Shown: positions 38,119 to 62,240, numbered from the stretch's first letter. The stretch is 64,000 nucleotides of DNA from a virus (IMGVR_UViG_3300009151_000044:30009-94008), one strand, 5' to 3'. Notes: generated from the letters alone by a model not told the origin. Made by a program: numbers and translations.

Positions 38119-38141
38119 TTCAATCTTCCTTGATATTCTAT

Positions 38142-39098
38142 TTATTTCTTAGGTACACAATTGGGGACAGTTTTGCCGCCCTTTTTCTTCATGCCTACTT
38201 GCTTGTAATCTTTCCAGCAAGGATCGTTATCCTCGCCAATATTCTTATCTATGCCACGACTGGCAATGCCGCCACGCTTGCGTTTTGCCGCAAGTTCTTC
38301 TATGCCGTGGCGGATTTGTTCTATGTTTTGTTCAAGACCCATAAACATTCCGCCTTGGGCTTTTTTAACAATTTCTTCCCACGCTACCAGGCTATCACTA
38401 TCTGCTAGTTGTGCTAGTTCTTTCAACTGGGCACGGGCTGACATAATACGGCCTTTAAGGCTCATAGGATTAGCTTTTTCGTGACCGTATATAGTTGGAT
38501 CGTTTGGATCACCAGTCATGTCGATTGGAGTTTCTTGTAAATCGCCGATGCTTTGTTTGTAAGCAATAGCGGCATCAATCTCTTCTAGACTTAGTTTTGG
38601 AGCAAACCCTTTGTATGTTCCAGCTTTTAATCCTTGCAACACAGTCATTTTTAAATTAGATCCACGCGGACCTGTTGGAGCAGGGGCTGCCTCAGGGGCT
38701 GCCTCAGGGGCGATTGGTTGCCCAGTTAGTCGATTGATCCCCGGCGGAGTTTCTTGTCCAGGTACTACCCGCTCATTAAGTCTACTTTCTCTCATCATAA
38801 CACGATCAGCAATAGTTTGTGCGTACTGATTAATCAGTTGACGCTTGTGTGCTTGTGCTTCTACAGCTTCTTCATCAAGTTCTTGAAGATAGCCTTTCAG
38901 CAATGATTCTGTTCTAATTAGGGGAGGTGTTTCTTTAGGTGTAGCATAATGTTGCATTGCCATTTGTACAGGCAACGCAACTTTATGTGGATTAGCACCT
39001 TCAGTAACGACTGAAAGAAATTTCTTCATGTCGTTTGCGCCTTCTACAGGCTTTGTAGATACTCCATCCAACGCCTGTAGTATGCGCTTCATGTCCAT
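38142..39098 (-). CDS. Putative internal head protein
   Basis: Modular, with xxE linkers; C-terminal PCWKDYKQVGMKKKGGKTVPNCVP. Confidence 0.5.
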   Translation of the reverse strand: MDMKRILQALDGVSTKPVEGANDMKKFLSVVTEGANPHKVALPVQMAMQHYATPKETPPLIRTESLLKGYLQELDEEAVEAQAHKRQLINQYAQTIADRVMMRESRLNERVVPGQETPPGINRLTGQPIAPEAAPEAAPAPTGPRGSNLKMTVLQGLKAGTYKGFAPKLSLEEIDAAIAYKQSIGDLQETPIDMTGDPNDPTIYGHEKANPMSLKGRIMSARAQLKELAQLADSDSLVAWEEIVKKAQGGMFMGLEQNIEQIRHGIEELAAKRKRGGIASRGIDKNIGEDNDPCWKDYKQVGMKKKGGKTVPNCVPKK

Positions 39099-39102
39099 TG
39101 GA

Positions 39103-40497
39103 TTACCCCAATAGACGCTTTGTTAACGCACGTAATTGATCAACTTCGCTTGATTCTTTAACAATAACATTTTCGTTAAGATTTAAACGACCAGTTAGTT
39201 CACGCATACGAGCTAATTCAGAACTTTCTTTAACTGTTTCTTTCTTATCAGCAACTGCTTTCTTCATTGGCTCTTTTTTGTCACCATCTTTGTCCATGTC
39301 TAAGAAGTCAGGCTTTTTACCTTTCTTAGCTTCGGCAACTGCTTGAGCAACATATGATTCAGTTTTCTTTTCTTTCTTAGCAAAAGGATTAACACCTTTC
39401 TTTGGACCTGCTTTCTTATCAGCAACTGCTTTCTTCATTGGCTCTTTTTTGTCACCATCTTTGTCCATGTCTAAGAAGTCAGGCTTTTTACCTTTACCTT
39501 CGTAAACGCCTTGACCATAAGTTTCGTCAACTTCTTTTTCTTTCTTAGCATTAGGATCAACTTTCTTGCCATCTTTAACACGAGTTACTGTGCCTGGATT
39601 TTTCTTTTCGTAGTCTTTAGAATCTTTAGCGGCAGCTTTGTCAGCAGCCTTGTCAGCGGCTTTGTCAGCGGCTGAGCGTGACTTAGCTTGGCTCTTTGGT
39701 TCTGTATGTGGCTCGTCAGTGAAACGATTTGGATTGTGAGTATGGCGTGTTACCCCTTTTGATGGACGAGTAATTTCACCGCCTGTTGAAGATAATTCTT
39801 CTTCAACTTCTTTTGATGGAGTATATGTACCCTTAACTTCGCCTGTACCAAAATTTGTACTGCCACCTGGGTATTCTGCGGTTAACTCATCTAATTCTTG
39901 ATTGTCTGGAATACCATTATGATTCTTATCTAGACGCTTGTGTGCTGCATGAGTAGCTTTGGTTAAACGCTTATATTTTTCAACTTTCTTTTCAACATGA
40001 TCAGGAACAGGCATGCCCATAGTAAGTCTCTTACCAGTACCACCACATTCTGTACATTGCTCTTCTTTGCCGCCACCGATCATTCTAGTTTCTTCAACTT
40101 TAGATTTTTTAGCTTGTTTTACTTTAAGCTCTTTGATCTTTGCTTTAGCTTCCATTAACTTGTTCTTAAGAGCAACTTTTTGCCCTTCAGAAAGAACATC
40201 ACTGTTATCTAGCTTATGACCGTATTCGCTGAACTCCATCTCGTATTCAAGATAGTGATATACTGAAGCAATATAATCAGCGGCTTTAGTAATCTTAGCT
40301 TGTACCCAACCTTCTAGTTGAGCGTTGTCTTCTAGCTTTTTAAATAGCTTGAAACTGTAGTTAGCTAGTTTGTACAAATCAGCTTTGGCCATTGCGCCTT
40401 CTTCGTCTGTTTGTCCTGGCTCTAAGCCCACGACTTGCCCGCTCATTTCTGGTTGTGTTGGTTCCATTTCTGGGCTCATTTGATCTAATTCTGGCAT
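39103..40497 (-). CDS. Putative internal head protein with EF-hand-like repeats
   Basis: EGWVQAKITKAADYI domain, CTECGGTG, LDKNHNG and 2x PDFLDMDKDGD; duplicated C-terminal ESSExxxxRxLTxRL. Confidence 0.5.
   Translation of the reverse strand: MPELDQMSPEMEPTQPEMSGQVVGLEPGQTDEEGAMAKADLYKLANYSFKLFKKLEDNAQLEGWVQAKITKAADYIASVYHYLEYEMEFSEYGHKLDNSDVLSEGQKVALKNKLMEAKAKIKELKVKQAKKSKVEETRMIGGGKEEQCTECGGTGKRLTMGMPVPDHVEKKVEKYKRLTKATHAAHKRLDKNHNGIPDNQELDELTAEYPGGSTNFGTGEVKGTYTPSKEVEEELSSTGGEITRPSKGVTRHTHNPNRFTDEPHTEPKSQAKSRSAADKAADKAADKAAAKDSKDYEKKNPGTVTRVKDGKKVDPNAKKEKEVDETYGQGVYEGKGKKPDFLDMDKDGDKKEPMKKAVADKKAGPKKGVNPFAKKEKKTESYVAQAVAEAKKGKKPDFLDMDKDGDKKEPMKKAVADKKETVKESSELARMRELTGRLNLNENVIVKESSEVDQLRALTKRLLG
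39240..39495. repeat. Exact 85-nt direct repeat pair
   Basis: 39240-39324 equals 39411-39495 and encodes KGKKPDFLDMDKDGDKKEPMKKAVADKK. Confidence 0.9.
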
Positions 40498-40525: not shown

Positions 40526-41170
40526 TTAGCGTCTTTTAACTACTGCGGCCTTCTTTGCCGGGCCACCAAATAGGCTGCTTCCTTTAATATCTAAACCGTT
40601 TTTAGCAGTTCCGTCTTTGTTTCTAGGTTGTACAACCTTAGGTTGCGGGGGTGCTTTTGTACCACTATGCCCAGGTCTACCGATATAACTCTTCTTTCCA
40701 CGTGCTTTTCCCGGACTAATATGTGGTGCATCCACGGTACCTATACTAGCAGAACTAGTTGCTCCGGCAGTTGCTGATTCGTTAGTCGGTGCCCACCATT
40801 TACCGGGTCCAAATTCTTTGTCAGCACTATCTTTTTGCATACTAAAACTACGACCGCTTGTACTGTATTTTGCCTTAGCCCACTTTCCACTTTTAGTTTT
40901 TTTAACTCCGTACATGGCAGCTGTGTCTTCTTGTCCAGGTTGTACACTGTAAAAGTAGTAACCTTTTAATACAGGCTTATCTTCCGGTGCTTGGTAACGT
41001 TGTTGTGGCTCTTTATCCCACCCTTCGTCATTTGCACCACCATCATCTTGATATGCTTGTGATTGATGCTTGCCCATGCCGCTTACGCTAGAACGATAGT
41101 CTCGATCATAAGCACTTGGACTGCCTGGTCGACGATAATGACCGTCGGTTAAAAGTTCACGTATTTTCAT
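40526..41170 (-). CDS. Putative internal head protein
   Basis: MKIRELL N-terminus; TNE|SATAGATSSASI motif. Confidence 0.5.
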   Translation of the reverse strand: MKIRELLTDGHYRRPGSPSAYDRDYRSSVSGMGKHQSQAYQDDGGANDEGWDKEPQQRYQAPEDKPVLKGYYFYSVQPGQEDTAAMYGVKKTKSGKWAKAKYSTSGRSFSMQKDSADKEFGPGKWWAPTNESATAGATSSASIGTVDAPHISPGKARGKKSYIGRPGHSGTKAPPQPKVVQPRNKDGTAKNGLDIKGSSLFGGPAKKAAVVKRR

Positions 41171-41565
41171 ATGCCGTATTGATTCCGTTTAGGGTTGGCA
41201 ACAGTACTTTTTGTATTTGTACCCTCAACTTCTTCACTATTTTTTGAAGTTAGTGTTTTGCCTTTCAATCCCATATTTTTTTTGCTTTTATTAATAATCT
41301 CTTCTTCAGCGTCAGTGTAAGCGAAAGTTGCCAATTGATTAGCAGTATGACTTTTTTGATCCATTGGGTGTAGATCGTCCGGACTACCGGCCATGTTTAC
41401 ACCAAATCTATACATATCGTAATACCAACCAGGTAGTTCTGGGTAAGTGGTCATATTTTTAATTGCTGACTTATGATGAGAATGAAGTTTGCCAGTTTTG
41501 CCCTTTCTCCCGCCGTTGCCGCCGGTATCTCCAGTATCTTCGTTAAACAGTTCTCTTAAATTCAT
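41167..41565 (-). CDS. Putative internal head protein, paralogous to the C-terminus of the 1120-aa protein
   Basis: MNLRELFNE start; YRFGVNMAGSPD..YT..E..NQYGI. Confidence 0.6.
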   Translation of the reverse strand: MNLRELFNEDTGDTGGNGGRKGKTGKLHSHHKSAIKNMTTYPELPGWYYDMYRFGVNMAGSPDDLHPMDQKSHTANQLATFAYTDAEEEIINKSKKNMGLKGKTLTSKNSEEVEGTNTKSTVANPKRNQYGI

Positions 41566-41852
41566 TTGACTGGTTTCTCCCCAGTCATGTAGGGCAAGCT
41601 GAACCATAGTTTAAACCACTCGGGAGTTCCGGGTTTAATATTATGCTTTTTCATTAACTCGCCTTTAGCATTACCAGTTACACTAATATTACTACCTTGA
41701 TTGGCACGATATTCGTGTAATCTTGCTTCACCGCCAAGACCGCCTAATCCCGCTAATGCTTTTAATTCGTGTATAGGATCATCGGGAGCAAGGTAGCAAT
41801 CTTCATTGCTATCCTGATTTAAATTTTCTGCGGTGATCCTATACTGTTTCAT
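41562..41852 (-). CDS. Hypothetical protein
   Basis: IKPGTPEWFKLWFS; likely start MKQYR. Confidence 0.55.
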   Translation of the reverse strand: MKQYRITAENLNQDSNEDCYLAPDDPIHELKALAGLGGLGGEARLHEYRANQGSNISVTGNAKGELMKKHNIKPGTPEWFKLWFSLPYMTGEKPVK

Positions 41853-42286
41853 TTTAAACTTGCTCTCAACATCCAACTGTGTTTCTTATGTGCGTCCTGT
41901 CGATCAGCTAAGAAATTACTTAGTCCGTGATCACCGTTTTGCTCAGCCATATCAAATGTAATACGAAATATATTAGCCATACGTTCGCTATCTTCTAACA
42001 GTTCACCTAGCATCTCACTCCATTCCGGTACAGAATTTTCATCTTTAACTTGTGTGAGCATACTAAATTTGCTATAGCTGGCAGGCGCATACACTTGTAA
42101 TGCTCGTAGTTCTTCAGCAAACTGATCAATAGCACTGTACACTTCGTCGTAAATTCTTTCGAATAACAAATGATGTTGATAAAATAAAGGACCTTCGGTA
42201 TTCCAGTGAAAGTTCTGTGCTTTTAAAGCAAACGCATATTCACTTGCGAATGCTGTTTTTAATGCTAAATGATATTTCTCGTCCAC
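41849..42286 (-). CDS. dps: Dps family ferritin-like protein
   Basis: KAQNFHWN..GPLF..HLLFE..Y..IDQFAE; HKKHSWMLRA. Confidence 0.9.
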   Translation of the reverse strand: MDEKYHLALKTAFASEYAFALKAQNFHWNTEGPLFYQHHLLFERIYDEVYSAIDQFAEELRALQVYAPASYSKFSMLTQVKDENSVPEWSEMLGELLEDSERMANIFRITFDMAEQNGDHGLSNFLADRQDAHKKHSWMLRASLK

Positions 42287-42287: not shown

Positions 42288-45200
42288 TTAAACTCCGTAT
42301 TGATTCTTTTTACGTTTTGCCACTGAACTAGTCTTATTTACAGTTGGTAACTCTTGACTACGCTTTCCTGACCAGTTTTCAATCTTACCACCACCTACTA
42401 GTAAAGAAGCTTTCTTAACCATTTCAAGTTCTTCGGGTGTATATGTTGATAGTAGAGGATCTCCGCCTAACCATGTATCACCGGCCATCTTTGTAGGATA
42501 GTCAGGGGCGCCAGCAAGGGCAATACCCATCCTGTAGTTCAAATAAGACGATCCTGTACTTGAGTTTTGATCAGGCATTGTTATCATATTTTTCATTGAT
42601 GCTTTATATTCTTTATCTAAGGGTGTTGTTTTACCCTTCATTTTATTACCTTGACCGTTTTTAGCTTCATTAATAGCACGTTCCATTTCACGAACTTGCT
42701 CGGCTAGGCGGCGCTCTTTTAACTTGGCGGCAATCGGCGCCGGAATATCTTTGTCTATTTTATCTATTGATGGCATAGCTGGTTTTATCTCTTGTGGTGT
42801 ATTTACCGGTTCTGTAGATACAGGAAGTTCAGCTGGCTCTTCCGCCGCCGGTTTAATTCTCATAAACTTTCTAGCAGTATCCATGAGTTTTTTAATCCAC
42901 GGCACTCCTAATTTCTTAACATCAAATGCCTGAGTCCAAAATTTCAATGCTTTTTCGTCTGGTAATGATAATGCTTTTCGAGCTTGCGTAAAACTAATGC
43001 CAGTACCGCCTTTGTCCGGATCGCGTTCTGTTTGAATAGTTTCAAACGTGACATCGTTATGACTACCTGGATAGCGCGGATCCTTCATGCGCTTGGCTAG
43101 CACATCCATCCATTTTTTCATGCCGGCGTATCGATCTTCACCAACCATTAGTATAATATGATTATACGGACTATCTGGAGGTAATACTAATTCTTTTTCT
43201 AATTTCTTTATAGGACTTCCACCATCCTGCCATATTTGAAACATATCAGCACGTTCTGGATACAATTTTTGCCAAGTTGCTAATTTCATTTCTGGCGGAA
43301 TCGGATCATCTGGTCCCACTGTAGGGCTAATATAAACAAACGCATCTCCGTCTAATTCATCAGCTTTATCTAACACTAAGTTAACTAACTGCTCGTGACC
43401 TTTATGGCCTACAAAGCTACCTGCTGTTACTATTGCTGTCCTTGTGCGGGTAGCACCTCCGGCAGCTTTTCTTGCTTCTCTAGCCGCTGCAATAGCATCT
43501 TGTTTGTTAGAAACTACTTGGCGTTGTTCTGCGCTAGTAACTTTAATTGGCCCGAGGCGAGTATTAAGAACAATACCTTCGTAATCCTTGCCTAGCATGT
43601 CTTTACCAATAATATTAGGATCTGAAATAATTGCTTTCTCTAAAGCTACTGCTACTGGTTGAAGTGCAGCAGCCACTTGACGTTTGCGATCATTAATGCC
43701 TTTTTCTTTACTGGTCAACATAGTTTTAAGTTCTTCTATGTTTTCTAACGGAGGTACAATTCCAGTAACATCTAATGCGCCATTTTGTGTTAGCGCATTA
43801 TTAATAAACATCACACTGCCTTGCTGTCCCAGTTCAGTTAACGATTTAACAACTTGCCTAGAATTTTTAATGTCGTCTCCACTAGTGGCATCAGATATAT
43901 GAAACGGTACTAGTGCCAGTTCTACACCTTGCGGAAGTTTGTCATAATGAATACCAACAAATTTTAATTGGCCTTCTGGTGTTTCTGTCGCAAATGGTAG
44001 GAACAATACTTCGCAAGTGACTTGTTTGTTAACTAAAAATTCTGGACCTAACTTGTCATCTACAAGTTCAACAGCTTTCATCATTTCTTCAAACAACTTG
44101 TCAAACAACTGAGCACGACCGAGTATCTCTGGATCAGTAGTTCCTTTTTCTTGATGATACTTGGCAAAGTTTGCTTCGTATCTAGGCGGAGTGCGACTAG
44201 TGCCCATAAAAGGTTTGCCGTCGGCATTTTTACCAAACCGTCCACCAAAGCCGTCTACCTTGACGTTCAACGGAATGTTTTGTATTTTAAAGTTTCCATT
44301 ACCGTCGTGTATTTCGTCTAGCAAATCTAACAAGTCTGCTGGAGGTAAATTACGTAAGTGCGGCATACCTTTTCTAAGTTTGGCAGCAACTTCAGCTTCT
44401 GCTAAAGGTTGTTTTGCTGTATTTTTATTAAGAAAATCTTGTTCGTAATTTTTACTCATTTCTACAGCACGGTCACGAAGCTCGCCGACAGTTTCATTTG
44501 GCAACCCTATATTTTCTAGCATGTAGTCAACTGCGGCAAATTTAATTTTTCTATCTCGTGCTGGGTCATTCTTGGTAATCATTTGACTACCTTTTTCAAA
44601 CAAGATATCTAAGAAACGATTAACGACCTCAGTTTTTTGTGTGTCATCATAATTTTTAGCAAGTAGCCCAACAGTACCGACAAAACTGTCTTGTGCGTTG
44701 CGCTCTTGCTTAGATGGTTTGTGACCAAAGAATGCTTCAAAGTGCGAACCAATTGATTGATCGTAGTGTCTGTCTTTTGGCTCTAGCAACTGCATAACAG
44801 GAATGCCATCCTGTACCATTGCTTCACCAGTTGCCGGATCCATATAGGGAACATACTTACGACTTAGGCCACCACCTTGACCGCCAGACACTGCAAAGCT
44901 ATAGTCGGCATCGGTAACCGGTTCTGGACTAATCTTTGTACTTTTCTTAAGTACGCGAGCAACGTATTTGGTACTAGTTTGTGCATAAGGCATCGCACGA
45001 TTGAGGTACTTGTGAAAAACACCTTTAATATTTTGTTGGATGTCATCCCAGTGCGAGCTATGACTATAGGCATACCATTCGTCTGGTTGTTCAGTAGCCG
45101 GATCGTACTTGCCAAATTCAAAATCAATTTGTAATTTAACTGGTAACTTTTCTAAGTTAACTTCCCACATACTTGAGTATTGATTGTTGCCTGGTTTAAA

Positions 45201-45650
45201 TCCGACAAATGTCGCCGGGCCGATTTGTTTTCCGATTACACCTGTTAAAAATTCTTTGACGCTGGGATCTAGTTCAACAGGAGCTTGTGTGTCAATATCA
45301 CCGACTTTAGGTTTTAATTTTACAAATTGATCATCTGTAATCTTTTTATCAAAGAAATGAAAGCTACTTCCGCTGAGATAAGACCCACTAGCGAATGCAG
45401 CTTCCGGCCATATTGGTTTGCCATATTGTTGTGAAAATGCGTTATTGATATTGATCATCAAATCATTTAATACATTTAACACAGCAGTTCTGTTATGAAC
45501 TTCTAAGTCTAAATCTTCTGCTTGATGTACGCCTGGTGTACCTTGCCAGCCAGCTGAGATCTTACCAGCTTCATCGTGGCTGGCTAGATTGCCACCCTCA
45601 GACAGTATTAGAAGTTTTCTAGTATTAACGAATAGTTCACGTAATAACAT
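42288..45650 (-). CDS. Multidomain nucleotidyltransferase-like protein (polB-type NTase + KxDG ligase-like + HxGH transferase-like)
   Basis: GSS..GDID..QIDF; VKVDG..EGIV..IKV; GSFVGHKGH..VGEDR..ISFTQAR. Confidence 0.6.
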   Translation of the reverse strand: MLLRELFVNTRKLLILSEGGNLASHDEAGKISAGWQGTPGVHQAEDLDLEVHNRTAVLNVLNDLMININNAFSQQYGKPIWPEAAFASGSYLSGSSFHFFDKKITDDQFVKLKPKVGDIDTQAPVELDPSVKEFLTGVIGKQIGPATFVGFKPGNNQYSSMWEVNLEKLPVKLQIDFEFGKYDPATEQPDEWYAYSHSSHWDDIQQNIKGVFHKYLNRAMPYAQTSTKYVARVLKKSTKISPEPVTDADYSFAVSGGQGGGLSRKYVPYMDPATGEAMVQDGIPVMQLLEPKDRHYDQSIGSHFEAFFGHKPSKQERNAQDSFVGTVGLLAKNYDDTQKTEVVNRFLDILFEKGSQMITKNDPARDRKIKFAAVDYMLENIGLPNETVGELRDRAVEMSKNYEQDFLNKNTAKQPLAEAEVAAKLRKGMPHLRNLPPADLLDLLDEIHDGNGNFKIQNIPLNVKVDGFGGRFGKNADGKPFMGTSRTPPRYEANFAKYHQEKGTTDPEILGRAQLFDKLFEEMMKAVELVDDKLGPEFLVNKQVTCEVLFLPFATETPEGQLKFVGIHYDKLPQGVELALVPFHISDATSGDDIKNSRQVVKSLTELGQQGSVMFINNALTQNGALDVTGIVPPLENIEELKTMLTSKEKGINDRKRQVAAALQPVAVALEKAIISDPNIIGKDMLGKDYEGIVLNTRLGPIKVTSAEQRQVVSNKQDAIAAAREARKAAGGATRTRTAIVTAGSFVGHKGHEQLVNLVLDKADELDGDAFVYISPTVGPDDPIPPEMKLATWQKLYPERADMFQIWQDGGSPIKKLEKELVLPPDSPYNHIILMVGEDRYAGMKKWMDVLAKRMKDPRYPGSHNDVTFETIQTERDPDKGGTGISFTQARKALSLPDEKALKFWTQAFDVKKLGVPWIKKLMDTARKFMRIKPAAEEPAELPVSTEPVNTPQEIKPAMPSIDKIDKDIPAPIAAKLKERRLAEQVREMERAINEAKNGQGNKMKGKTTPLDKEYKASMKNMITMPDQNSSTGSSYLNYRMGIALAGAPDYPTKMAGDTWLGGDPLLSTYTPEELEMVKKASLLVGGGKIENWSGKRSQELPTVNKTSSVAKRKKNQYGV

Positions 45651-46024
45651 TAATAATCCTTATACTTCCCGTCACTGTGATGTTTTTTAAAATCTTCTAG
45701 CATTTTTTTACAAACTGCTTTACAAGTTTTATCTTCTAATGATTCTGGTAATTCTTTAATAGGATACTCTTCAACATACTGTTTATAGCATTCGTTAACT
45801 GCTGATTTAAACATCATCGGATCAATTTTTTCTTTTGCTTTAACGTGTTTAATACATTTAGTAATCAACGGGTAGACATGACGACGGTACATGTCATCAT
45901 CATGATTCATAAAAAATGTCAGGTCTTCAACAAGATCGAAGTCAATTTTAGTGCCGTCAAGATCTTTCTTGACAAACTCTAATTCTTTAACATCTTTGCC
46001 TTCTAATAGTTCATTAATGCGCAT
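45650..46024 (-). CDS. Putative internal head protein
   Basis: MRINELLEG start; GATAAATA element upstream (46070-46077). Confidence 0.5.
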   Translation of the reverse strand: MRINELLEGKDVKELEFVKKDLDGTKIDFDLVEDLTFFMNHDDDMYRRHVYPLITKCIKHVKAKEKIDPMMFKSAVNECYKQYVEEYPIKELPESLEDKTCKAVCKKMLEDFKKHHSDGKYKDY

Positions 46025-46114
46025 TTTTAGCCCGTTATGTTTAGTCGCAACAATACTTTGCGGATATACTATTTATCGCAAACGCCTTTTTAGAAAATAG
46101 CTTTGATTTGGCAG

Positions 46115-46747
46115 TTAGGCCTTAACAACCCGTTCTATTTTGTTAATAGAACCGCCTAAATGCATTTTTGTCATGAGTAATACGTTATCACCGGTTAGAT
46201 AAAAGTGTGTACCACCCCAACTGCGATCTTTTAGCAGATCTCTTTTACAACTCTTAGTTAGCTTTAACTTTGAAGTATTTTCGGCCCACTCAACAAATGC
46301 GCTGTGGTTTTGTATAGTCTTACCTAGGGTGATCCTAAATTCGTACGGAATTTTAGGCATTATTACAGTATCTTTAACTAGATTACTACCGTCAATCGGA
46401 ATGCTTATATACTTTACTTTATCTTTGTCGATCTTAATTAAACTATCAACATCTGATTTTAAATTTGTATATACTGAAATGTATGGAGATTCTACACGTA
46501 CTTCAATATTTTTTAATTTGTTAATCTGATGTTGTAGCTTAAATGCGTAATCTAATTGTTCTTGAGTCTTTGGTTGCGGTTGATACATTGACCGATATGT
46601 ATCTTTGCTAGTAAGAGTGGTCTTTTTCAACTGTTCTAGCGTTGACTCCATGTCTCCACTTCTAAATGCCGACGCTATCGAGCATACCAGAACTATTTTG
46701 TACTGGTATGTCCCTTTGAACAAACTTTTTGTTGTTTTAGTTAGCAT
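46115..46747 (-). CDS. Hypothetical protein
   Basis: 210-aa basic ORF coupled to clpA. Confidence 0.55.
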   Translation of the reverse strand: MLTKTTKSLFKGTYQYKIVLVCSIASAFRSGDMESTLEQLKKTTLTSKDTYRSMYQPQPKTQEQLDYAFKLQHQINKLKNIEVRVESPYISVYTNLKSDVDSLIKIDKDKVKYISIPIDGSNLVKDTVIMPKIPYEFRITLGKTIQNHSAFVEWAENTSKLKLTKSCKRDLLKDRSWGGTHFYLTGDNVLLMTKMHLGGSINKIERVVKA

Positions 46748-48998
46748 TTTCCAACATGCTGCCTGTAGTAAGCAACGGCACCTTGACTACTTTTGGTTTA
46801 GCAACTAGTAAGATCTTATCGTTCTCAATAGTAATAGTTAACCAACCGCCACCTTTTAATTCGCCAAACAACATCATACGAGCAAGGTCACGTTTAATTT
46901 CCTTATCAATAACACGTTGTAGTGGACGAGCACCCATCTTAGCATCAAACCCTTTGTCGATCAGCCAGTTAACAGCTTCCTTATCAATTTTAATACGAAT
47001 AGCTTTATCTTTAACTTGATCTTTCAAAGCGTCAATAAACTTCATAACTACTTTAGTCATTGTTTCTTTGCCTAACTTATTAAAGGTAATGACACCGTCT
47101 AATCGATTTCGGAATTCAGGAGTAAAGAATTTCTTTAAGTCTTTATCACTATAGTCTTTTTCTTGAGTGCCAAAGCCAATAACATTCTTTTCAGCATCTT
47201 GTGAGCCAGCATTTGTAGTAAGAATAAGAATTAAGTTACGGCAATCGGCTTGCTTGCCATTTGATCCTGTGATAAAGCCATTATCCATCATTTGTAACAG
47301 TACGGTACTTACGTCCGGGTGTGACTTTTCAACTTCGTCAAACAATAACACAGCATTTGGATTCTCTTGAATCTGCGTGATCAATAGTCCGGCGTTTTCT
47401 TCAAAGCCAACATAGCCCGGTGGACTGCCGATAAGTTTACTGATGCTATGCTTCTCTTGATATTCACTCATGTCAAATCGTAGTAGCTTAACGCCCAAGT
47501 GCTTACTCAGCGCCTTGGCAGTTTCGGTCTTACCGCAACCTGTAGGCCCCATGAACACAAATGACCCGATAGGTTTATTATCTGATTTTAAGCCTGCCTG
47601 TGCTACAACAATCTTATCAACTACTTCAGTTAGGGCAAGATCTTGACCGTATACTTCTTCACCGAGCTTATCTTGTAGTGTTGCAAGTGTTTGGCTTTCA
47701 GTTTCCATAACTTGTTCTTCGGGCAAGTTAATAATCTTGCTTAACTCATGTTGGATTTCACGTTCGGTAACATTACGATCGTCTGCTAATTTTAAATTAA
47801 AACGTGAACACGCTAAGTCGATCAAATCAATTGCTTTATCTGGAAGCTTCTTATCTGTTTGATACTTAACGGATAGTTTGATTGCCGCTTGTAACGCATC
47901 GTCTTTAATCTTAACTTTATGGAATTCTTCGTAGTATTTCTTAATGCCTTTAAGAATTTGTAAAGTTACTTCCTGTGTAGGCTCGTCAACAGTAATGCGT
48001 TGGAAACGACGCATGAGCGCACGGTCCTTTTCAAAGTGTTTGCGATACTCTTCCCAGGTAGTCGATGCCACAACTTTAATGTTGCCTTTGCTTAGAGCCG
48101 GTTTCATCATGTTAGCGAGATCGTTAGCACTATTACCTGCGGATCCTGCGCCAGAGATCATGTGTGCCTCGTCGATGAACAGCACCGTCTTACCTTTCTT
48201 AGTAAGGGCTTTCAGCACTTGTTTGAAACGCTCTTCAAAATCGCCTCGATACTTACTGCCTGCTAGCATAGCACTAATATCTAGATTATAAACTGTATAG
48301 TCTTTTAGGAAATCAGGAACAGCACCCTTAACGATATTAAACGCAAGACCTTCTGCTATGGCAGTTTTTCCTACGCCGGGATCTCCAACTAAGATTACAT
48401 TGTTTTTACTACGTCGCCCCATTGCTAAGGCAATATTTTCTAATTCGTCGATTCGACCAATGACCGGGTCAATCTTATTTTTCTTAACAGCATCGTTTAA
48501 GTTTGTAGTAAATGATGATAATGCCCTGCTACTAGAGTTATCTTGTTCTTCTACTTCTTCTTGCTCAACCGAATTGTTAATATAGTCGGCAAATTTATCT
48601 TTATCAATATTTGCTTGAGCAATATAAAAGTGCGCCCAACTACGTTTTTCACCAACCATAGCAAGGAATACATCAGTGGGCTCAATGCGTTGACGACCGT
48701 TGAATAACACTTGTGTAAAAGCACGGTTAAGCACACGCTCAACTGATTGTGTTTTCTTTGGCTTGACTACTACATCCTGAACAGTAATTTCGGCACATTT
48801 ATGCTGAAGATACTCACCAAGATTCTTTCTCAGATGCTCGGCATCGGCACCGTATCCTTGAATAGTGTTAGTAAACGACTCCTCTAATAACATAGCAAAC
48901 AATAGATGCTCTATAGTTAGATATTCGTGGTGTAATTTTTTAGCAGTATCAATTGCTTTTTCAAATACTACTTGTAAATTGTCGCTTGGTTCAACCAT
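46737..48998 (-). CDS. clpA: ATP-dependent Clp protease ATP-binding subunit
   Basis: Clp N-domain; two AAA modules (GDPGVGKT, GPTGCGKT); SKLIGSPPGYVG; IGF loop (VIGF); no ClpB M-domain. Confidence 0.92.
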   Translation of the reverse strand: MVEPSDNLQVVFEKAIDTAKKLHHEYLTIEHLLFAMLLEESFTNTIQGYGADAEHLRKNLGEYLQHKCAEITVQDVVVKPKKTQSVERVLNRAFTQVLFNGRQRIEPTDVFLAMVGEKRSWAHFYIAQANIDKDKFADYINNSVEQEEVEEQDNSSSRALSSFTTNLNDAVKKNKIDPVIGRIDELENIALAMGRRSKNNVILVGDPGVGKTAIAEGLAFNIVKGAVPDFLKDYTVYNLDISAMLAGSKYRGDFEERFKQVLKALTKKGKTVLFIDEAHMISGAGSAGNSANDLANMMKPALSKGNIKVVASTTWEEYRKHFEKDRALMRRFQRITVDEPTQEVTLQILKGIKKYYEEFHKVKIKDDALQAAIKLSVKYQTDKKLPDKAIDLIDLACSRFNLKLADDRNVTEREIQHELSKIINLPEEQVMETESQTLATLQDKLGEEVYGQDLALTEVVDKIVVAQAGLKSDNKPIGSFVFMGPTGCGKTETAKALSKHLGVKLLRFDMSEYQEKHSISKLIGSPPGYVGFEENAGLLITQIQENPNAVLLFDEVEKSHPDVSTVLLQMMDNGFITGSNGKQADCRNLILILTTNAGSQDAEKNVIGFGTQEKDYSDKDLKKFFTPEFRNRLDGVITFNKLGKETMTKVVMKFIDALKDQVKDKAIRIKIDKEAVNWLIDKGFDAKMGARPLQRVIDKEIKRDLARMMLFGELKGGGWLTITIENDKILLVAKPKVVKVPLLTTGSMLENAN

Positions 48999-49479
48999 TT
49001 AATTTCCTTTGTTTTTTCCGTGCCATTTGTAATTTTAAATCACTTACATATTCTGTAAATGTAATTCCATCTAAATGATCCAATTCGTGTTGGAAACATC
49101 TAGAGTCAACGCCATCAAGTTCTATTATACATTGTTTGCCTGTGTTGTCAAGATAAGCGGCAGTAATTTTATTATGTCTTTTAACTTTAAGCCATAAATT
49201 AGGAAAACTTAAACATCCTTCTTGATCATCTTTTAGATCGTTGTCGCCGACCATAATCCATGGATTAAAACAACCGATTTCTCGACCGTCTACTAGTTTC
49301 ATAACAAACACTCTGCGCAATAGTCCGACTTGATTACCAGCTAGCCCAATACCTCGATTAGCCTTCATTATTACTAACATGTCTTGTTCAACGACTGCAG
49401 CATTAATATGATTTTTAAAATCCCAACTTTCAGATTTTTGTTTAAGTATGGGATCAGGCTCGTGAATTAATTTCATCAT
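48991..49479 (-). CDS. def: Peptide deformylase
   Basis: GIGLAGNQVG, EGCLSFP, QHELDHLDG. Confidence 0.95.
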   Translation of the reverse strand: MMKLIHEPDPILKQKSESWDFKNHINAAVVEQDMLVIMKANRGIGLAGNQVGLLRRVFVMKLVDGREIGCFNPWIMVGDNDLKDDQEGCLSFPNLWLKVKRHNKITAAYLDNTGKQCIIELDGVDSRCFQHELDHLDGITFTEYVSDLKLQMARKKQRKLNG

Positions 49480-50305
49480 TGAGTTGCTTCAACCTTGTTA
49501 CTAAATCTGGATCAGTCACTGCTGGTGCCTTAATATTTACTACAATTACAAATCTTCCTTTATATCCGGAATGGGGATTAGTAAATCCTTGTCCTGCGCT
49601 GGCAAATTCTGCTCCAACATTTATTCCAGGTCGTAGGTCAATTGGCATAGTATTTCCAGTAATTGACGTAGCAACTTTTTGACATCCTACCATTGCTTCG
49701 ATTGGTGTAATGTCTATGCTTGTATATAGGTCATCACCTCGGCGCTCAAATTTGCCAGACGGGTCACCTAACACAATAATAGTTACGTTTAAATGGCCAC
49801 GGGGAGTATTAGGAAAACTATCGTCACCTAATCCTTGGTATCTAATAGTTTCGCCATGGTGAATGCCAGGCGGCACATTAATGACTACAGTTTGAGGTTT
49901 ACCGCTAGGTAGTCTATAGTTAGCTTCTAACTGTTTGCCTAAGTAAGAATCTAGCAAGCTGATTTGGCACTGAATATTTAAATCTCTATTTCGACGTTGA
50001 TTTCCACCTCGCATATGACCAAATATATCACCGAACGGATTGCCGCCCTGACCAAACATATCACCGAACGGATCTCCTGATGTAAATCGCACTTGCGGTC
50101 CACCGCCGTACATACGTTGTTGATCGTATTCAGCTTTCTTCTGAGCGTTGCTTAAGATATCATAGGCAACACTGATATCTTTGAATCGGGCTTGGTCACC
50201 ACCTTTGTCTGGATGATGTTTGTTAGCCAAGGTTCGATATGCTTTTTTAATTTCGTCTGGGCTAGCATTTTCGCCAACACCTAGTGTTTGGTAATAATCT
50301 GTCAT
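49454..50305 (-). CDS. DnaJ-class (type II/CbpA-like) co-chaperone
   Basis: J domain with HPD, G/F-rich linker, C-terminal domain, no Zn finger. Confidence 0.9.
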   Translation of the reverse strand: MTDYYQTLGVGENASPDEIKKAYRTLANKHHPDKGGDQARFKDISVAYDILSNAQKKAEYDQQRMYGGGPQVRFTSGDPFGDMFGQGGNPFGDIFGHMRGGNQRRNRDLNIQCQISLLDSYLGKQLEANYRLPSGKPQTVVINVPPGIHHGETIRYQGLGDDSFPNTPRGHLNVTIIVLGDPSGKFERRGDDLYTSIDITPIEAMVGCQKVATSITGNTMPIDLRPGINVGAEFASAGQGFTNPHSGYKGRFVIVVNIKAPAVTDPDLVTRLKQLNDEINSRA

Positions 50306-59466: not shown

Positions 59467-62240
59467 ATTGTTATCCTATCGTTTCTAAATATAAGGTATT
59501 TATCCCCTATCTCTTCACCTACTGCATCAATTATATATCGATCAGAGGTGTAGTCTAATAATTTAAAATCAAAGCCACTAAACTTGATGTTTAATATTAT
59601 GTCATCTGCGGTACCTACTTTACAGTAGCAAAGTGGTACAGCTAACTGAAAATCTAATTCTTGTCGTGCGCCCGGTTGAATACTGCGCATCCATAACGGC
59701 AAGTAGTTGCGTTCTAATTCTAACGGTATCTGATTGCCTGAGTTATCTATCCTATAACTTGACTTAATACGATCTCTCCACAAGGAAATGCTACTAGGAT
59801 AATATGTACCTAAATTTGGGTTCGACACCTGATATACCGATTGATCAATACTTACTGACGTATCGGGGCGATTTGCTGGATTACCAACTTGTTCCATGCG
59901 AGCCCGTTTAGCAGCCGCCATGGGGTCGCTTAGACTATATCCAGCCGCCCAAATATCATTACTGGTATCAATGGTTATACTAGAAGAACGCAGTCCTAAG
60001 TTTTTTATAGTATCGGGCAGTACATTACCGTTTGGTTCTAATGGGTCAATCATTTGTACGTACACGACCTCGTATACTTTGTCATGAGTTCCTGGAATTA
60101 CAGCAGTAGCTTTCTTAACACTACTGAATTGAAATCTCTTGCGCTTATGGTTTAACCCCATTGCTGATACATAGGCCGCTGCCTCTGTAGTTTCAATTCC
60201 GGCAAAGATTAACATTGATAGCTCTTGTTGAATCCCAAAATTTTCATCGGTTGGTCTATAGATGCTTTCTGGAGTAAACACGCTGGCATTGTTAATAAAG
60301 CCCTTCCAACGAGATCGTTGATCTAATTTTAAGAATGGTTTAGTTTTTAAATTACCGTATATTGCGCGATTTGGAGTATCAACCGTGATTGAAAATGTTC
60401 TAGTAGTTGCGCTGTAGCCAAACTGATCTTTAGCTTCAACTGTAAACACAAATTTACGATCTATAGTAGTCTTACCGTTATCAAATGATGTAAATGTTTT
60501 TGTAGAAGTTTGTGGCGGCTGATCAAAAAATCTAGTGAGGCCCTGGTTACCAGGTTTATAAAATTGATTGGCCTTGCCAATAATTTCACCATCTTGCGTT
60601 AATCCTAGCCCCGGCGGTAGTCTTCCGTTGACTTTTGAATACAATACAGTTGCCCCAGTGATGCTAGTAGTGGCTTGTATTTTTAAAGTGGATACAAAAT
60701 TAGCATTAATTGATCCCAGATCGACCGGAGTAACCCATGACATCACGCTTTCGACTTCGCCTATCATACTGACGGTGAACACTCTTGGCGATCTTGCGTA
60801 TTCACCTTTATCTGAAAACCGTGTAGCAGTTACAGTGAATTTGTAATCTTTAGTAATCGCAGGCTGATACGGTGAAATACCATATATTTCAGCGGTAGCG
60901 ATATCAAAATTTAATCCTGGAGGTAGTTGACTTAAATCACCAATAAAGAAAGTTACCCCATCTGGCAACGCTAGCTGTAATGGTTCTACAACTGTTAACC
61001 TATATTCATTACTGCCCAATGAAGCCACATGAGATATATGATATTTTCTATAATCCGGAGTTGCTATCACTATGTCAGTTAGCGGATCAGTAATTGTAAA
61101 CAATCCACCAAATGTTAACCATTGACCTATTACTGGAGCAACAGGTGTATTTGTTACGGTAATGCTATGACCGTTAATTTTATTATCAGTATATAATTTA
61201 CTTAATGTAACTGCCGATATATCACTGTTTATTTCTTCTAATGAATAGATAACTTGGTCAGTGTCATATGTGTCTAATACTAATGTTATGTAATTGTTTG
61301 CTCTATGTAATCCAAGATTACTCTTAGTAAGCCATATCGGAGCACGTAGGTAGGTAGCATCTGCGGTAAACAAACTAGTACCATCTAATAATGAAACATT
61401 GTCTGATCTAAAATAATCGTCACCTACTACAAAGATAGCAAACTTTCTTTTTGACTTATATGAAATACTCGGAATAGTAGTGCCATTAATAGGATTAGTA
61501 GTATACGTGACAATGGTTTCCGGAGTCACATCACCGTCTGTAATACTAACTACGAATTCGTAATTTCTGTTTAGTTTCTTTGGTCTTGCCGCTGGTATAC
61601 TATAATCAAAAAATACAGTATCGTAAATATAGCTGTCGTACCCGTTTGTTGGGCGCGACCCGAAATCAAAAGCTACTGAATCATAGTACCCGTCATCATA
61701 TGTACCAGCCCCGTCTTGAGGTTTAATTGATAGCGCAGGCTCCACCCATCCTGTAATTTTACCATCGGGAGACAATGATAATCCTGGAGGTAACTGTCCG
61801 TCGTTGTCAGCAATGAAAAAACTTAATCTTTGACCTGCGGCAGTATCTCGATCAAATGCTTCAATTTGAAAATCTACATAACTCGAGTCTAACACAAAGT
61901 ATTGCAGATTATTTTGATTAACTGTTAATGATCCTGACGGGGTAATAAATTCAGGGTCATCAGGACCTTGGATAGTTATAAAAAATGTTCTGTCAGATAT
62001 CTGACCAAGTTTTTCTGCTCTAATACAAAATTCATAGATAGTATTTCTAGGAACTTCGTAAGGAGTTCCTATTATTTTTAATCCTGAGATTCTAAGACCA
62101 CCGGGAAGTTTTCCTGATATTACTCTAAAATTACTAACTCCTGCTGATAAATTAATAGGCAGCGTAAGTTCTAGAGTAGACCTTTCTTGGAATGTTCCAA
62201 AGGAGTATCCTGATAGTTCGGTCCATACTGCTAGTGCCAT
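59463..62240 (-). CDS. Large virion protein with Ig-like (LPPGL) repeats, probable baseplate component
   Basis: Four G.LPPGL..G.I.G..Y.F.V.A repeats; YLPLWMRSIQ. Confidence 0.65.
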   Translation of the reverse strand: MALAVWTELSGYSFGTFQERSTLELTLPINLSAGVSNFRVISGKLPGGLRISGLKIIGTPYEVPRNTIYEFCIRAEKLGQISDRTFFITIQGPDDPEFITPSGSLTVNQNNLQYFVLDSSYVDFQIEAFDRDTAAGQRLSFFIADNDGQLPPGLSLSPDGKITGWVEPALSIKPQDGAGTYDDGYYDSVAFDFGSRPTNGYDSYIYDTVFFDYSIPAARPKKLNRNYEFVVSITDGDVTPETIVTYTTNPINGTTIPSISYKSKRKFAIFVVGDDYFRSDNVSLLDGTSLFTADATYLRAPIWLTKSNLGLHRANNYITLVLDTYDTDQVIYSLEEINSDISAVTLSKLYTDNKINGHSITVTNTPVAPVIGQWLTFGGLFTITDPLTDIVIATPDYRKYHISHVASLGSNEYRLTVVEPLQLALPDGVTFFIGDLSQLPPGLNFDIATAEIYGISPYQPAITKDYKFTVTATRFSDKGEYARSPRVFTVSMIGEVESVMSWVTPVDLGSINANFVSTLKIQATTSITGATVLYSKVNGRLPPGLGLTQDGEIIGKANQFYKPGNQGLTRFFDQPPQTSTKTFTSFDNGKTTIDRKFVFTVEAKDQFGYSATTRTFSITVDTPNRAIYGNLKTKPFLKLDQRSRWKGFINNASVFTPESIYRPTDENFGIQQELSMLIFAGIETTEAAAYVSAMGLNHKRKRFQFSSVKKATAVIPGTHDKVYEVVYVQMIDPLEPNGNVLPDTIKNLGLRSSSITIDTSNDIWAAGYSLSDPMAAAKRARMEQVGNPANRPDTSVSIDQSVYQVSNPNLGTYYPSSISLWRDRIKSSYRIDNSGNQIPLELERNYLPLWMRSIQPGARQELDFQLAVPLCYCKVGTADDIILNIKFSGFDFKLLDYTSDRYIIDAVGEEIGDKYLIFRNDRITI

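What the first reader, a model, noticed from the sequence alone, without database searches (positions are those of the whole stretch)
42288..45650. 1120-aa putative virion polyprotein joining three unrelated nucleotidyl-transfer folds
Seen: GSS..GDID..QIDF (aa about 94-175, polymerase-beta-type NTase); VKVDG..EGIV..K (from aa about 463, RNA/DNA-ligase-type); GHKGH..VGEDR..IS (from aa about 748, HxGH transferase); then a fourth small domain. Several domain boundaries carry LSE, LAE or INE motifs resembling T4-type prohead protease sites, and the N-terminus has the shared MxxREL motif. Inference: packaged into the head, cleaved and injected as a kit for RNA/tRNA repair, protein NMPylation or nucleotide-cofactor synthesis at the start of infection, possibly for counter-defence.
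Basis: partly seen in the sequence, partly recalled or inferred. Interest (0 to 1): 0.8.

Follow-up and report, generated by a model that had tools for sequence, protein, structure and literature searches.

The report
Head-packaged phage polyprotein, three nucleotidyltransferases
An uncultured giant T4-like freshwater phage encodes one 1120-residue late protein joining a polymerase-beta-type enzyme, an RNA-ligase-type enzyme and an NMNAT/PPAT-type enzyme behind a T4-style head-loading leader, so it is probably packed into the capsid, cut apart and injected, though its substrates are unknown.

Summary
ORF 42288-45650 (-) encodes 1120 aa, and every quoted motif is present and invariant across homologues.

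**Folds**
- D4 (996-1120): a basic, mobile module of unknown fold.

**Packaging and cleavage (comparative support only)**
- Of 185 D1-type proteins, 27 start M-GGN. The other 158 carry a 3-27 aa leader ending [L/I/V]-x-E just before GGN in 155.
- The variable D1-D2 linker keeps [LIV]xE in 155/160 fused proteins. D4 is always preceded by such a site.
- Related 200-221 kb records encode a T4 gp21-type protease and a T4-like head module.
- A depleted ATAAATA late-promoter-like motif heads the operon.

**Functional link**
Cultured Xanthomonas phage X1 encodes the parts as adjacent separate genes, without a leader on D1, so the enzymes appear to work together.

**Most likely**
Injected nucleic-acid end-repair cargo, following RlaP-plus-RNA-ligase logic. 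Substrates are untested.

This scan found the same family on other DNA several times, with the same reading. I found no publication describing it.

The parts
42288..45650 (-). Whole 1120-aa ORF (P0001), the precursor polyprotein
   Evidence: More than 580 near-length homologues; the core aa 1-935 is 50-60% identical among huge-phage contigs.
45597..45650 (-). Leader, aa 1-18 (MLLRELF...L-S-E): CTS-like propeptide ending in an (L/I)xE site
   Evidence: pLDDT <50. M1, L3 and E18 are >=90% conserved. In the family, 158 leaders have P1=E in 155 and P3=L/I/V in 155, while 27 proteins start M-GGN without a leader.
44397..45596 (-). D1, aa 19-418: polymerase-beta-superfamily nucleotidyltransferase starting with invariant GGN
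44397..44405 (-). L416-A-E418: predicted protease site in the disordered D1-D2 linker
   Evidence: Linker 410-423 has pLDDT <50. The site is kept in 40/40 close homologues. 155/160 fused homologues have [LIV]xE 5-20 aa before the D2 start, in a linker otherwise variable in length and sequence.
43455..44396 (-). D2, aa 419-732: RNA/DNA-ligase-type (covalent) adenylyltransferase domain
42846..43454 (-). D3, aa 733-935: HxGH (HIGH) nucleotidylyltransferase of NMNAT/PPAT type
42666..42845 (-). Acidic disordered linker, aa 936-995, with several xxE sites and ending I993-N-E995
   Evidence: pLDDT <50 for 937-970; pI 4.75. All 15 D4-bearing proteins examined have [LIV]xE within 45 aa before D4.
42291..42665 (-). 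D4, aa 996-1120: basic (pI 9.7), mobile C-terminal module of unknown fold
   Evidence: It occurs at the C-termini of different HxGH enzymes, and alone behind a leader, at 45-68% identity. No Pfam, PHROG or Atlas hit. AF2 confidence is low.
46070..46076 (-). ATAAATA: T4-type late-promoter-like element heading the operon
   Evidence: 7 copies against 29.5 expected. All lie 15-45 nt upstream of an RBS plus ATG, and three precede tail-fibre-like genes. A copy lies on the coding strand within 1.2 kb upstream of the homologous gene in 23/29 related loci, at ~420-450 nt in 16 of them.
45650..46024 (-). 124-aa ORF with an MRINELLE leader, translationally coupled (TAATG) to the polyprotein
   Evidence: Conserved directly upstream in related loci, with MRI(R/T)ELxE or MLLxEFF N-termini.
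41167..41565 (-). 132-aa paralogue of D4 behind its own leader (MNLRELFNE)
   Evidence: 36% identity to aa 998-1120, E 3.6e-12; start and leader.
40526..41170 (-). 214-aa basic (pI 9.85), low-complexity protein with an MKIRELL leader; internal-protein-like
   Evidence: no PHROG hit.

Best explanation
A late-expressed capsid-cargo precursor.

**Shown**
- It is one ORF with three different nucleotidyltransferase folds plus a basic tail module: D1 polymerase-beta type, D2 RNA-ligase type, D3 NMNAT/PPAT type.
- It belongs to a large family that is a conserved, syntenic gene in the related huge T4-like phage contigs examined.

**Inferred from comparative data**
- The 18-aa leader works like the T4 capsid targeting sequence and brings the precursor into the prohead core.
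- The lineage's gp21-type (Peptidase S77) prohead protease then cuts after Glu at (L/I)xE sites: after E18, after E418, and in the 936-995 linker (last site E995).
- The predicted products are D1 (about 45 kDa, new N-terminus GGN), a D2-D3 two-enzyme piece (58-64 kDa, depending on which linker site is cut) and D4 (about 14 kDa, basic).
- The pieces stay in the head and enter the cell with the DNA, as T4 internal proteins and Alt do.

**Inferred from family logic**
- D1 adds nucleotides to a 3'-OH and D2 seals, as proposed for RlaP plus RNA ligase. The set would be a ready-made nucleic-acid end-repair or end-modification kit acting before any phage gene is expressed.
- D3 adenylylates a phosphorylated partner that is still unknown.
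For: **Folds**
Catalytic motifs are invariant.

**Leader**
- Stand-alone and fused D1 proteins either start M-GGN (27) or carry a leader (158). The leader ends in E in 155 and has L/I/V at P3 in 155.
- The leaderless start is real in cultured Vibrio phage phiKT1024: an in-frame TAA lies 9 codons upstream and an RBS is present.
- The T4 CTS is MKTYQEFIAE. Residues 4 and 7 target and residues 8 and 10 direct processing. Related loci hold MRAKEFIAE-type N-termini.

**Internal sites**
- [LIV]xE is kept in 155/160 otherwise variable D1-D2 linkers, and before all 15 D4 modules, whether internal or in an N-terminal leader.
- Stand-alone D2-D3 proteins start at the position that cleavage after E418 would create.

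**Machinery**
- PF03420 protease is present in 4 of 4 related 200-221 kb records.
- The G001 head module runs portal, 81-aa MLLNEF protein, protease, scaffold slot, major capsid protein.

**Timing and context**
- An ATAAATA late-promoter-like motif is shared with tail-fibre operons and conserved upstream in relatives.
- In another lineage the gene sits between the major capsid protein and neck genes.

**Functional coupling**
Xanthomonas phage X1 has D1, a 334-aa KxDGxR protein, D2 and a PF01467 enzyme as overlapping genes in domain order.

**Precedent**
T4 packages and ejects Alt and the internal proteins. RlaP adds 1-2 NMPs to RNA 3'-OH and works with RNA ligases.
Against: - There are no virion proteomics, and no cultured phage has the fused protein.
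- The own 94-kb fragment (25% complete) shows no protease gene.
- The homologues are related, so the counts of conserved sites are not independent events.
- GGN is invariant also in leaderless forms, so part of the site's context is a property of the domain.
- The X1 cluster and the stand-alone D2-D3 proteins lack leaders, so the enzymes can work without packaging.
- No end-healing kinase or phosphatase is part of the protein.
- D1 gives no RlaP Pfam match, and its longest structural alignments are to family-X DNA polymerases, so DNA is as possible a substrate as RNA.
- The role of D3 in any repair scheme is unexplained.
Confidence: 0.55

Rival explanations
1. Packaged and injected as above, but the target is the phage's own incoming DNA. 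A family-X-like polymerase (D1) fills gaps and a ligase (D2) seals nicks or joins genome ends on entry, or mends restriction damage. This would be a virion-borne minimal DNA break/gap repair set like Pol X plus ligase of ASFV or bacterial LigD.
For: - The longest structural alignments of D1 (178-192 aa) are to Pol beta, lambda, mu, TdT and ASFV Pol X.
- Neighbouring genes include a DNA polymerase and a Dps-like DNA-binding protein.
Against: - D2 lacks the OB domain of DNA ligases; D3 follows it directly.
- A canonical DNA ligase exists in a related record.
Confidence: 0.2
2. A cytoplasmic multi-enzyme that is never packaged. The leader and the LxE motifs serve something else, such as translation initiation context, a degradation or chaperone tag for the neighbouring ClpA-like ATPase, or plain structural conservation. 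The fusion only coordinates three enzymes of one pathway.
For: - The unfused X1 cluster lies among replication and modification genes and lacks a leader on D1.
- Stand-alone D2-D3 proteins lack leaders.
- In this window the gene lies between a ClpA-like gene and the DNA polymerase gene.
- Nothing has been shown experimentally.
Against: - The leader-or-M-GGN dichotomy, with E at P1 and L/I/V at P3 in 155 of 158, is hard to explain otherwise.
- The same rule recurs at two internal borders inside variable, disordered linkers.
- The same leader type sits on the small protein in the gp67/68 slot next to the protease.
- The operon has a late-promoter-like motif.
Confidence: 0.15
3. Host-takeover or small-molecule chemistry rather than nucleic-acid repair. 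D3 makes NAD, FAD or a CoA-like dinucleotide, for example against NAD-depleting defences. D1 NMPylates a protein or makes or consumes a nucleotide signal. D2 acts as a capping-type or adenylylating enzyme.
For: - D3 is equally close to NMNAT, NadD, NadM, PPAT and FMNAT.
- Jumbo phages carry HIGH-NTase NAD salvage enzymes.
- T4 Alt is an injected protein modifier.
Against: - The conserved pairing of a polymerase-beta NTase with an RNA-ligase-type domain, as a fusion and as a gene cluster, is the known signature of RNA-end repair.
- No NAMPT, Nudix or kinase partner is fused.
- D2 keeps the full ligase motif set.
Confidence: 0.1

Closest known systems
T4 internal proteins IPI, IPII, IPIII and the packaged ADP-ribosyltransferase Alt (capsid targeting sequence, gp21 processing, ejection with the DNA)
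   Same: - A short N-terminal leader similar to MKTYQEFIAE, ending in (L/I)xE before the mature protein.
- A gp21-type protease and a T4-like head gene order in the lineage.
- Small basic leader-bearing proteins encoded alongside.
- A packaged enzyme (Alt) as precedent.
   Different: - The cargo here is a 124-kDa chain of three nucleotidyltransferases with internal cut sites, a polyprotein rather than a single small protein.
- The leader is longer (median 15 aa) and of the type MxLxE[LF]F...[LI]xE.
- Nothing has been shown by proteomics.
RlaP (PF10127) plus RNA ligase RNA-repair modules of bacteria and jumbo phages (Burroughs and Aravind 2016, as cited in PMC7824862; PMC12776372)
   Same: A polymerase-beta-superfamily NTase functionally tied to an ATP-dependent RNA-ligase-type enzyme, here by fusion and, in phage X1, by adjacent genes.
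   Different: - D1 gives no PF10127 match, even at E 10.
- D2 matches no ligase Pfam model.
- A third, HxGH enzyme is always attached to D2.
- The protein carries capsid-loading and cleavage signals.
phiKZ/SPN3US ejection proteins processed by the prohead protease at (S/A)xE sites
   Same: Giant-phage head cargo cut after Glu at a short motif, with redundant sites in propeptides or linkers, and enzymes (vRNAP) delivered from the head.
   Different: A different phage lineage and motif (L/I at P3, as in T4). The cargo is not an RNA polymerase.
Gene cluster WEM34317-WEM34320 of cultured Xanthomonas phage X1 (OQ427096)
   Same: D1 homologue (E 3.3e-37 to the family profile), D2 homologue (E 3.1e-12) and a PF01467 HxGH enzyme, in the same order, as overlapping genes.
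   Different: - Separate genes.
- D1 starts M-GGN without a leader.
- An extra 334-aa protein with GKKVDGER lies between D1 and D2.
- No D4.
Multi-domain end-repair enzymes (bacterial LigD; T4 Pnkp with Rnl1/Rnl2)
   Different: - No kinase, phosphatase or AEP polymerase domain.
- Different folds for the polymerase part.
- Those enzymes are not virion cargo.

Membership tests
Polymerase-beta-like nucleotidyltransferase superfamily (D1) | hG[GS] motif followed by [DE]x[DE] on the next strand, and a third carboxylate on a later strand | tested here: met
   G94-S95, D118-x-D120 (strand 118-124) and D176 (strand 170-180) are invariant in 40 and 54 sequences. The GS-to-DxD spacing is 22 aa, longer than usual.
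Polymerase-beta-like nucleotidyltransferase superfamily (D1) | Alpha/beta palm fold shared with Pol X, TUTases, OAS/cGAS | tested here: met
Polymerase-beta-like nucleotidyltransferase superfamily (D1) | Match to a curated sequence model (e.g. PF01909) | tested here: not met
   No Pfam hit for P0001 or for any of the 54 D1 proteins at E 0.1. Only an ESM-Atlas feature lead: PF01909 on 33% of members of a neighbouring cluster.
RlaP (PF10127) | Match to the PF10127 model | tested here: not met
   No match at E 10 in six-frame searches of this genome and four relatives; none by hmmscan.
RlaP (PF10127) | Genomic association with an RNA ligase | tested here: met
   D1 is fused to the RNA-ligase-like D2 in 160 proteins and lies in one gene cluster with the D2 gene in phage X1, one gene apart.
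RlaP (PF10127) | Adds 1-2 NMP to an RNA 3'-OH | not testable with these tools
   The activity is reported for Pseudomonas RlaP in PMC12776372. It needs a biochemical assay of D1.
ATP-dependent RNA/DNA ligase (covalent nucleotidyltransferase) superfamily (D2) | Motif I KxDG with the nucleophilic Lys; motifs III, IV (EG) and V (K) | tested here: met
   K464-V-D466-G467, E547, E691-G692 and K703 are invariant in A1. The last four are also invariant in the divergent set A3, which includes phage X1. Motif V has one Lys only.
ATP-dependent RNA/DNA ligase (covalent nucleotidyltransferase) superfamily (D2) | Adenylyltransferase domain fold | tested here: met
ATP-dependent RNA/DNA ligase (covalent nucleotidyltransferase) superfamily (D2) | Match to a curated sequence model (PF09414, PF01068) or to solved ligase sequences | tested here: not met
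   No Pfam hit. No PDB sequence hit with profiles A1 or A3. hhalign against a phage DNA ligase is not significant and aligns motif IV only.
HxGH (HIGH) nucleotidylyltransferase / cytidylyltransferase-like superfamily (D3) | (H/T)xGH motif after the first strand, and an ISxxxxR-type motif near the C-terminus | tested here: met
   H749-K-G751-H752 follows strand 737-744. G882-x-G884-I-S-F-T-Q-A-R891 is also present. H749, G751, H752, G882, G884 and R891 are invariant.
HxGH (HIGH) nucleotidylyltransferase / cytidylyltransferase-like superfamily (D3) | Rossmann-like fold of PPAT/NMNAT | tested here: met
HxGH (HIGH) nucleotidylyltransferase / cytidylyltransferase-like superfamily (D3) | Curated sequence model | tested here: inconclusive
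   phrog_3041 'cytidyltransferase' E 1.9e-14. Pfam FAD_syn matches only weakly in 27/40 homologues, best E 0.003, below the cut-off. FADS in the PDB gives E 0.011-0.03 over the HxGH stretch only.
T4-type capsid-targeted, gp21-processed head cargo | Short N-terminal leader ending in (L/I)xE directly before the mature protein | tested here: met
   aa 1-18 end L-S-E. In the family, 155/158 leaders have E at P1 and 155/158 have L/I/V at P3; 27 homologues lack the leader and start at the same GGN.
T4-type capsid-targeted, gp21-processed head cargo | Genome encodes a gp21-type (Peptidase S77) prohead protease | tested here: inconclusive
   Not found in the own 94-kb fragment (25% complete). Present in 4 of 4 related 200-221 kb records that carry the homologue, E 2.6e-27 to 9.8e-26.
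T4-type capsid-targeted, gp21-processed head cargo | Late expression | tested here: inconclusive
   An ATAAATA late-promoter-like motif lies 46 nt upstream of the first ORF of the operon, is shared with tail-fibre operons and is conserved in relatives. No RNA run is listed.
T4-type capsid-targeted, gp21-processed head cargo | Protein present in virions in processed form and ejected | not testable with these tools
   It needs virion mass spectrometry. No cultured phage in the collection has the fused protein.

The most novel reading that the evidence does not exclude
Giant T4-like phages deliver a pre-made nucleic-acid repair or modification machine from the capsid: a polymerase-beta-type 3'-end extender, an RNA-ligase-HxGH two-enzyme piece and a basic module. 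All are cut from one precursor by the head protease and act in the first seconds of infection, before any phage gene is read. For example, they might reverse tRNA or rRNA cleavage by host abortive-infection nucleases, or mend the incoming genome. This would be the first virion-borne RNA/DNA end-repair system. It would also show a general, readable 'leader plus (L/I)xE' code by which these phages turn arbitrary enzymes into injected cargo.
Probability: 0.3. Interest if true: 0.8.

Novelty: new variant of a known kind. Interest (0 to 1): 0.62.

Why it matters
- If the reading is right, T4's capsid-targeting system is used in nature to inject large enzymes, and even several enzymes from one precursor. 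That widens the list of what phages bring into the cell at time zero.
- The comparative rule found here allows head cargo to be predicted from sequence in uncultured T4-like giant phages. The rule is: a leaderless M-GGN start versus a leader ending (L/I)xE, and the same site at every domain border.
- The family is large, with more than 900 relatives in the representative library. It is strongly conserved and has no Pfam model for D1, D2 or D4.
- The three enzymes and the D4 module are new, testable biochemical targets with possible links to counter-defence against RNA-targeting immunity.

Tried and rejected
- **Pfam and NCBIfam:** no hit for the protein. Pfam on all members of A1 and A2 gave only weak FAD_syn for D3.
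- **PDB sequence searches:** with the protein and with profiles A1 and A3, only the HxGH stretch of FAD synthetase appeared.
- **hhalign:** the D2 profile against a related phage's DNA ligase was not significant.
- **Foldseek on D1 alone:** nothing below E 0.001.
- **ESM Atlas:** no usable hit for D4.
- **RlaP PF10127:** not matched, even at E 10.
- **RNA ligase PF09414:** not found elsewhere in this genome or four relatives.
- **Ribosomal protein S21:** not found, so there is no link to the published bS21 huge phages.
- **Closest cultured phages by DNA polymerase** (Phosso, Atu_ph07, SCTP-2, an Asteriusvirus): no homologue at profile level.
- **Exact T4 late promoter TATAAATA:** 0 copies; the 7-mer ATAAATA is the informative form.
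- **Sequencing runs:** no RNA holder listed.
- **Phage X1 paper:** reports no virion proteomics.
- **Earlier scan note:** its claim that relatives of two parts were seen in purified virions could not be traced.
- **LDE444-446:** conserved, but it lies inside a helix of D2, so I do not count it as a cut site.
Full report
**Observation**

The ORF lies at 42288-45650 on the minus strand. It has 1120 codons, an ATG start and no internal stop.
- GSS, GDID and QIDF at aa 94-177.
- VKVDG at 463-467, EGIV at 691-694 and K703.
- GHKGH at 748-752, VGEDR at 836-840 and IS at 885-886.
- LSE at 16-18, LAE at 416-418 and INE at 993-995.
- The N-terminus MLLRELF.

The window is the last 64 kb of a 94-kb IMG/VR contig that CheckV rates 25% complete, so this is a huge phage. 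Its DNA polymerase is nearest to those of Sinorhizobium phage Phosso, Agrobacterium phage Atu_ph07, Salicola phage SCTP-2 and the E. coli Asteriusvirus group, at 43-49% identity. Near-identical DNA is held by several freshwater metagenome studies.

**The family**

The word-indexed search found 580 near-length relatives. The exhaustive search found 923 representatives at E <= 0.001. The core, aa 1 to about 935, is 50-60% identical among contigs of up to 340 kb. What follows the core varies. Forty aligned homologues keep all the catalytic-type residues invariant.

Separate genes also exist for D1 alone (about 350 aa), D2 plus D3 (about 500 aa), D3 alone and D4 alone. No cultured phage in the collection has the fused protein. 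Only D1 (Vibrio and Xanthomonas phages), D2 (Xanthomonas phages) and weak D3 matches appear.

**Folds**

The whole-protein AlphaFold model (pLDDT 77) shows four bodies. They are separated by low-confidence stretches at 1-13, 410-423, 727-732 and 937-970.

- **D1.** Folded alone with 54 sequences, D1 reaches pLDDT 96.4 and pTM 0.92. The best solved matches belong to the polymerase-beta superfamily:
  - OAS2, GLD-2, Pol mu, Pol lambda and ASFV Pol X also match.
  - Foldseek gives Pol lambda prob 0.99.
- **D2.** In a search that does not use Foldseek, every listed row that falls wholly within aa 416-731 is a ligase:
  - Trl1 scores 8.4, Pmar-Lig 8.4 and the archaeal Rnl 8.1.
  - REL1, the ASFV ligase and archaeal DNA ligases score 7.8.
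  - Foldseek agrees.
  - KxDG, E547, EG691-692 and K703 fit ligase motifs I, III, IV and V.
- **D3.** This is a clear HxGH enzyme:
  - NMNAT scores 12.6 and NadM scores 12.5.
  - It matches phrog_3041, annotated 'cytidyltransferase'.
- **D4.** It is basic (pI 9.7) and poorly modelled. It has no Pfam, PHROG or Atlas hit.

No Pfam model covers D1, D2 or D4.

**The leader**

This is the main new evidence. Among 185 family proteins with a complete D1 start, 27 begin M-GGN. The other 158 carry a leader of 3-27 residues (median 15) before the same invariant GGN. The residue just before GGN is Glu in 155 of the 158, and the residue two before that is L, I or V in 155. The three exceptions have Met before GGN and look like over-extended gene calls.

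In cultured Vibrio phage phiKT1024 the leaderless start is real. A stop codon lies nine codons upstream in frame, and an RBS precedes the ATG. The leader is therefore an add-on. If it is removed after Glu, it leaves the same N-terminus as the leaderless forms have after Met removal.

This matches the T4 rule. The capsid targeting sequence MKTYQEFIAE is the first 10 residues of the internal proteins. Positions 4 and 7 serve targeting, and positions 8 and 10 serve processing. gp21 cuts after the Glu. Related loci even hold small ORFs starting MRAKEFIAE, MRAREFINE and MRALEFITE.

In this window, four ORFs within 5.5 kb start with the motif. A strict form of the motif occurs at 9 of 379 ORF starts, against 1 of 2040 internal Met.

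**Internal sites**

The D1-D2 linker is disordered and varies in length from about 10 to over 150 residues. Even so, 155 of 160 fused proteins keep [LIV]xE 5-20 residues before the conserved start of D2, and four of the five exceptions have MxE. Stand-alone D2-D3 proteins begin at that same point.

All 15 D4-bearing proteins examined have [LIV]xE shortly before D4. This holds whether D4 follows another domain or follows an N-terminal leader. No conserved site separates D2 from D3.

The predicted products are:
- D1, aa 19-418, 44.7 kDa.
- D2-D3, from aa 419 to a site in the 936-995 linker, 58-64 kDa.
- D4, aa 996-1120, about 14 kDa.

**Machinery, timing and context**

- All four related records of 200-221 kb encode a Peptidase S77 (gp21-type) protease. 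The own fragment does not reach that region.
- In G001 the head module runs: portal, an 81-aa protein starting MLLNEF in the gp67/68 slot, an acidic protein, the protease, a scaffold-slot protein, and the major capsid protein.
- The 7-mer ATAAATA is depleted in the window (7 against 29.5 expected). Every copy lies 15-45 nt before an RBS and ATG. Three copies precede tail-fibre-like genes.
- One ATAAATA copy, at 46070-46076, precedes the 124-aa leader ORF. That ORF overlaps the start of the polyprotein gene by TAATG.
- A copy lies on the coding strand within 1.2 kb upstream in 23 of 29 related loci. I read this motif as the lineage's T4-type late promoter. That is an inference from position and from general knowledge of T4 late promoters.
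- In a different lineage (L104), the 926-aa homologue sits between the major capsid protein gene and virion and neck genes.

**Functional coupling**

Cultured Xanthomonas phage X1 carries four overlapping genes in the order of the domains:
1. A leaderless D1 homologue.
2. A 334-aa protein with a GKKVDGER motif.
3. A D2 homologue.
4. A PF01467 HxGH enzyme.

Fusion in one lineage and an operon in another argue that the three enzymes serve one pathway.

The closest described logic is RlaP plus RNA ligase. RlaP is a polymerase-beta-family NTase that adds one or two NMPs to damaged RNA 3' ends before ligation. It is common in jumbo phages. D1 is not a detectable RlaP member, so this is 'works like', not 'is a'.

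**Mechanism and rivals**

- **Best reading (0.55):** late synthesis, leader-driven loading into the prohead core, and cutting by the gp21-type protease into D1, D2-D3 and D4. The pieces are ejected with the DNA and act on nucleic-acid ends. D1 extends a 3'-OH, D2 seals, and D3 adenylylates an unknown phosphorylated partner.
- **Rival 1 (0.2):** the same delivery, but aimed at the incoming DNA.
- **Rival 2 (0.15):** a cytoplasmic enzyme that is never packaged.
- **Rival 3 (0.1):** small-molecule or protein-modifying chemistry.

The packaging steps are inferred from sequence comparison only. The enzymatic steps are inferred from fold families only.

**Novelty and limits**

The parts belong to known kinds: T4-type head cargo and NTase-ligase repair modules. 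New here are the combination, the polyprotein layout, and the leader-versus-M-GGN rule. The jumbo-phage survey that treats RlaP and RNA ligases does not use the terms 'capsid-packaged' or 'internal head'.

Earlier follow-ups of this scan reached the same reading on other genomes. They are not independent evidence. One of their claims, that relatives were seen in purified virions, I could not trace.

Other limits:
- The homologues are related, so the site counts overstate the number of independent events.
- D2 and D4 were not folded alone.
- No RNA run was listed.

Noticed in passing
window 388-394(+), 5001-5007(+), 18957-18963(-), 38139-38145(-), 46070-46076(-), 59497-59503(-), 62920-62926(-): ATAAATA is about four-fold depleted (7 against 29.5 expected; TATAAATA 0 against 8). 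Every copy sits 15-45 nt upstream of an RBS plus ATG on the coding strand, several before tail-fibre-like genes. It is probably the late promoter of this lineage.
   Followed up: partly
L110 (Xanthomonas phage X1, OQ427096) 5668-9017: The unfused version of the module in a cultured phage: leaderless D1, a 334-aa protein with GKKVDGER, D2, and a PF01467 HxGH enzyme, as overlapping genes next to primase/helicase and 7-deazaguanine genes. This gives a tractable system for genetics.
   Followed up: partly
window 46737-50305 (-): A cluster of a ClpA-like two-ATPase-domain protein (phrog_4871, 753 aa), a peptide deformylase and a DnaJ-like J-domain protein, conserved in synteny across related loci.
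   Followed up: no
window 39103-40497 (-), 41562-41876 (-); L094 8154-9236: Short L[KR]xL(A/T)G-type motifs (ELKALAGLGG; MRELTGRL; LRALTKRLLG) resemble the C-terminal tail of the scaffold-slot protein of G001 (..IRKLAGLK). This may be a second head-loading signal, as another note of this scan suggested.
   Followed up: no
window 41849-42286 (-): A Dps/ferritin-like 'DNA binding protein' (phrog_3636, E 2.8e-27) lies directly downstream of the polyprotein gene, inside the operon of leader-bearing proteins, but has no leader itself.
   Followed up: no
window 38142-39098 (-), last 30 aa: The Cys-containing C-terminal tail (..CWKDYKQVGMKKKGGKTVPNCVPKK) matches the ends of seven otherwise different PHROG families, so it is a small mobile C-terminal module.
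   Followed up: no
L104 4777-8922 (IMG/VR contig of 111.7 kb): A 926-aa three-domain homologue, followed by a 454-aa protein starting MRHQEFIQPLWE, lies between the major capsid protein and virion/neck genes. A homing endonuclease and a methyltransferase are inserted beside it.
   Followed up: partly
BFVD A0A2L0UZB9 (Agrobacterium phage Atu_ph07, 277 aa): A structural relative of D1 (Foldseek E 3.1e-8, 13% identity) exists in a cultured 490-kb phage in which the sequence profile found nothing. Its locus and any published virion proteome were not looked up.
   Followed up: no
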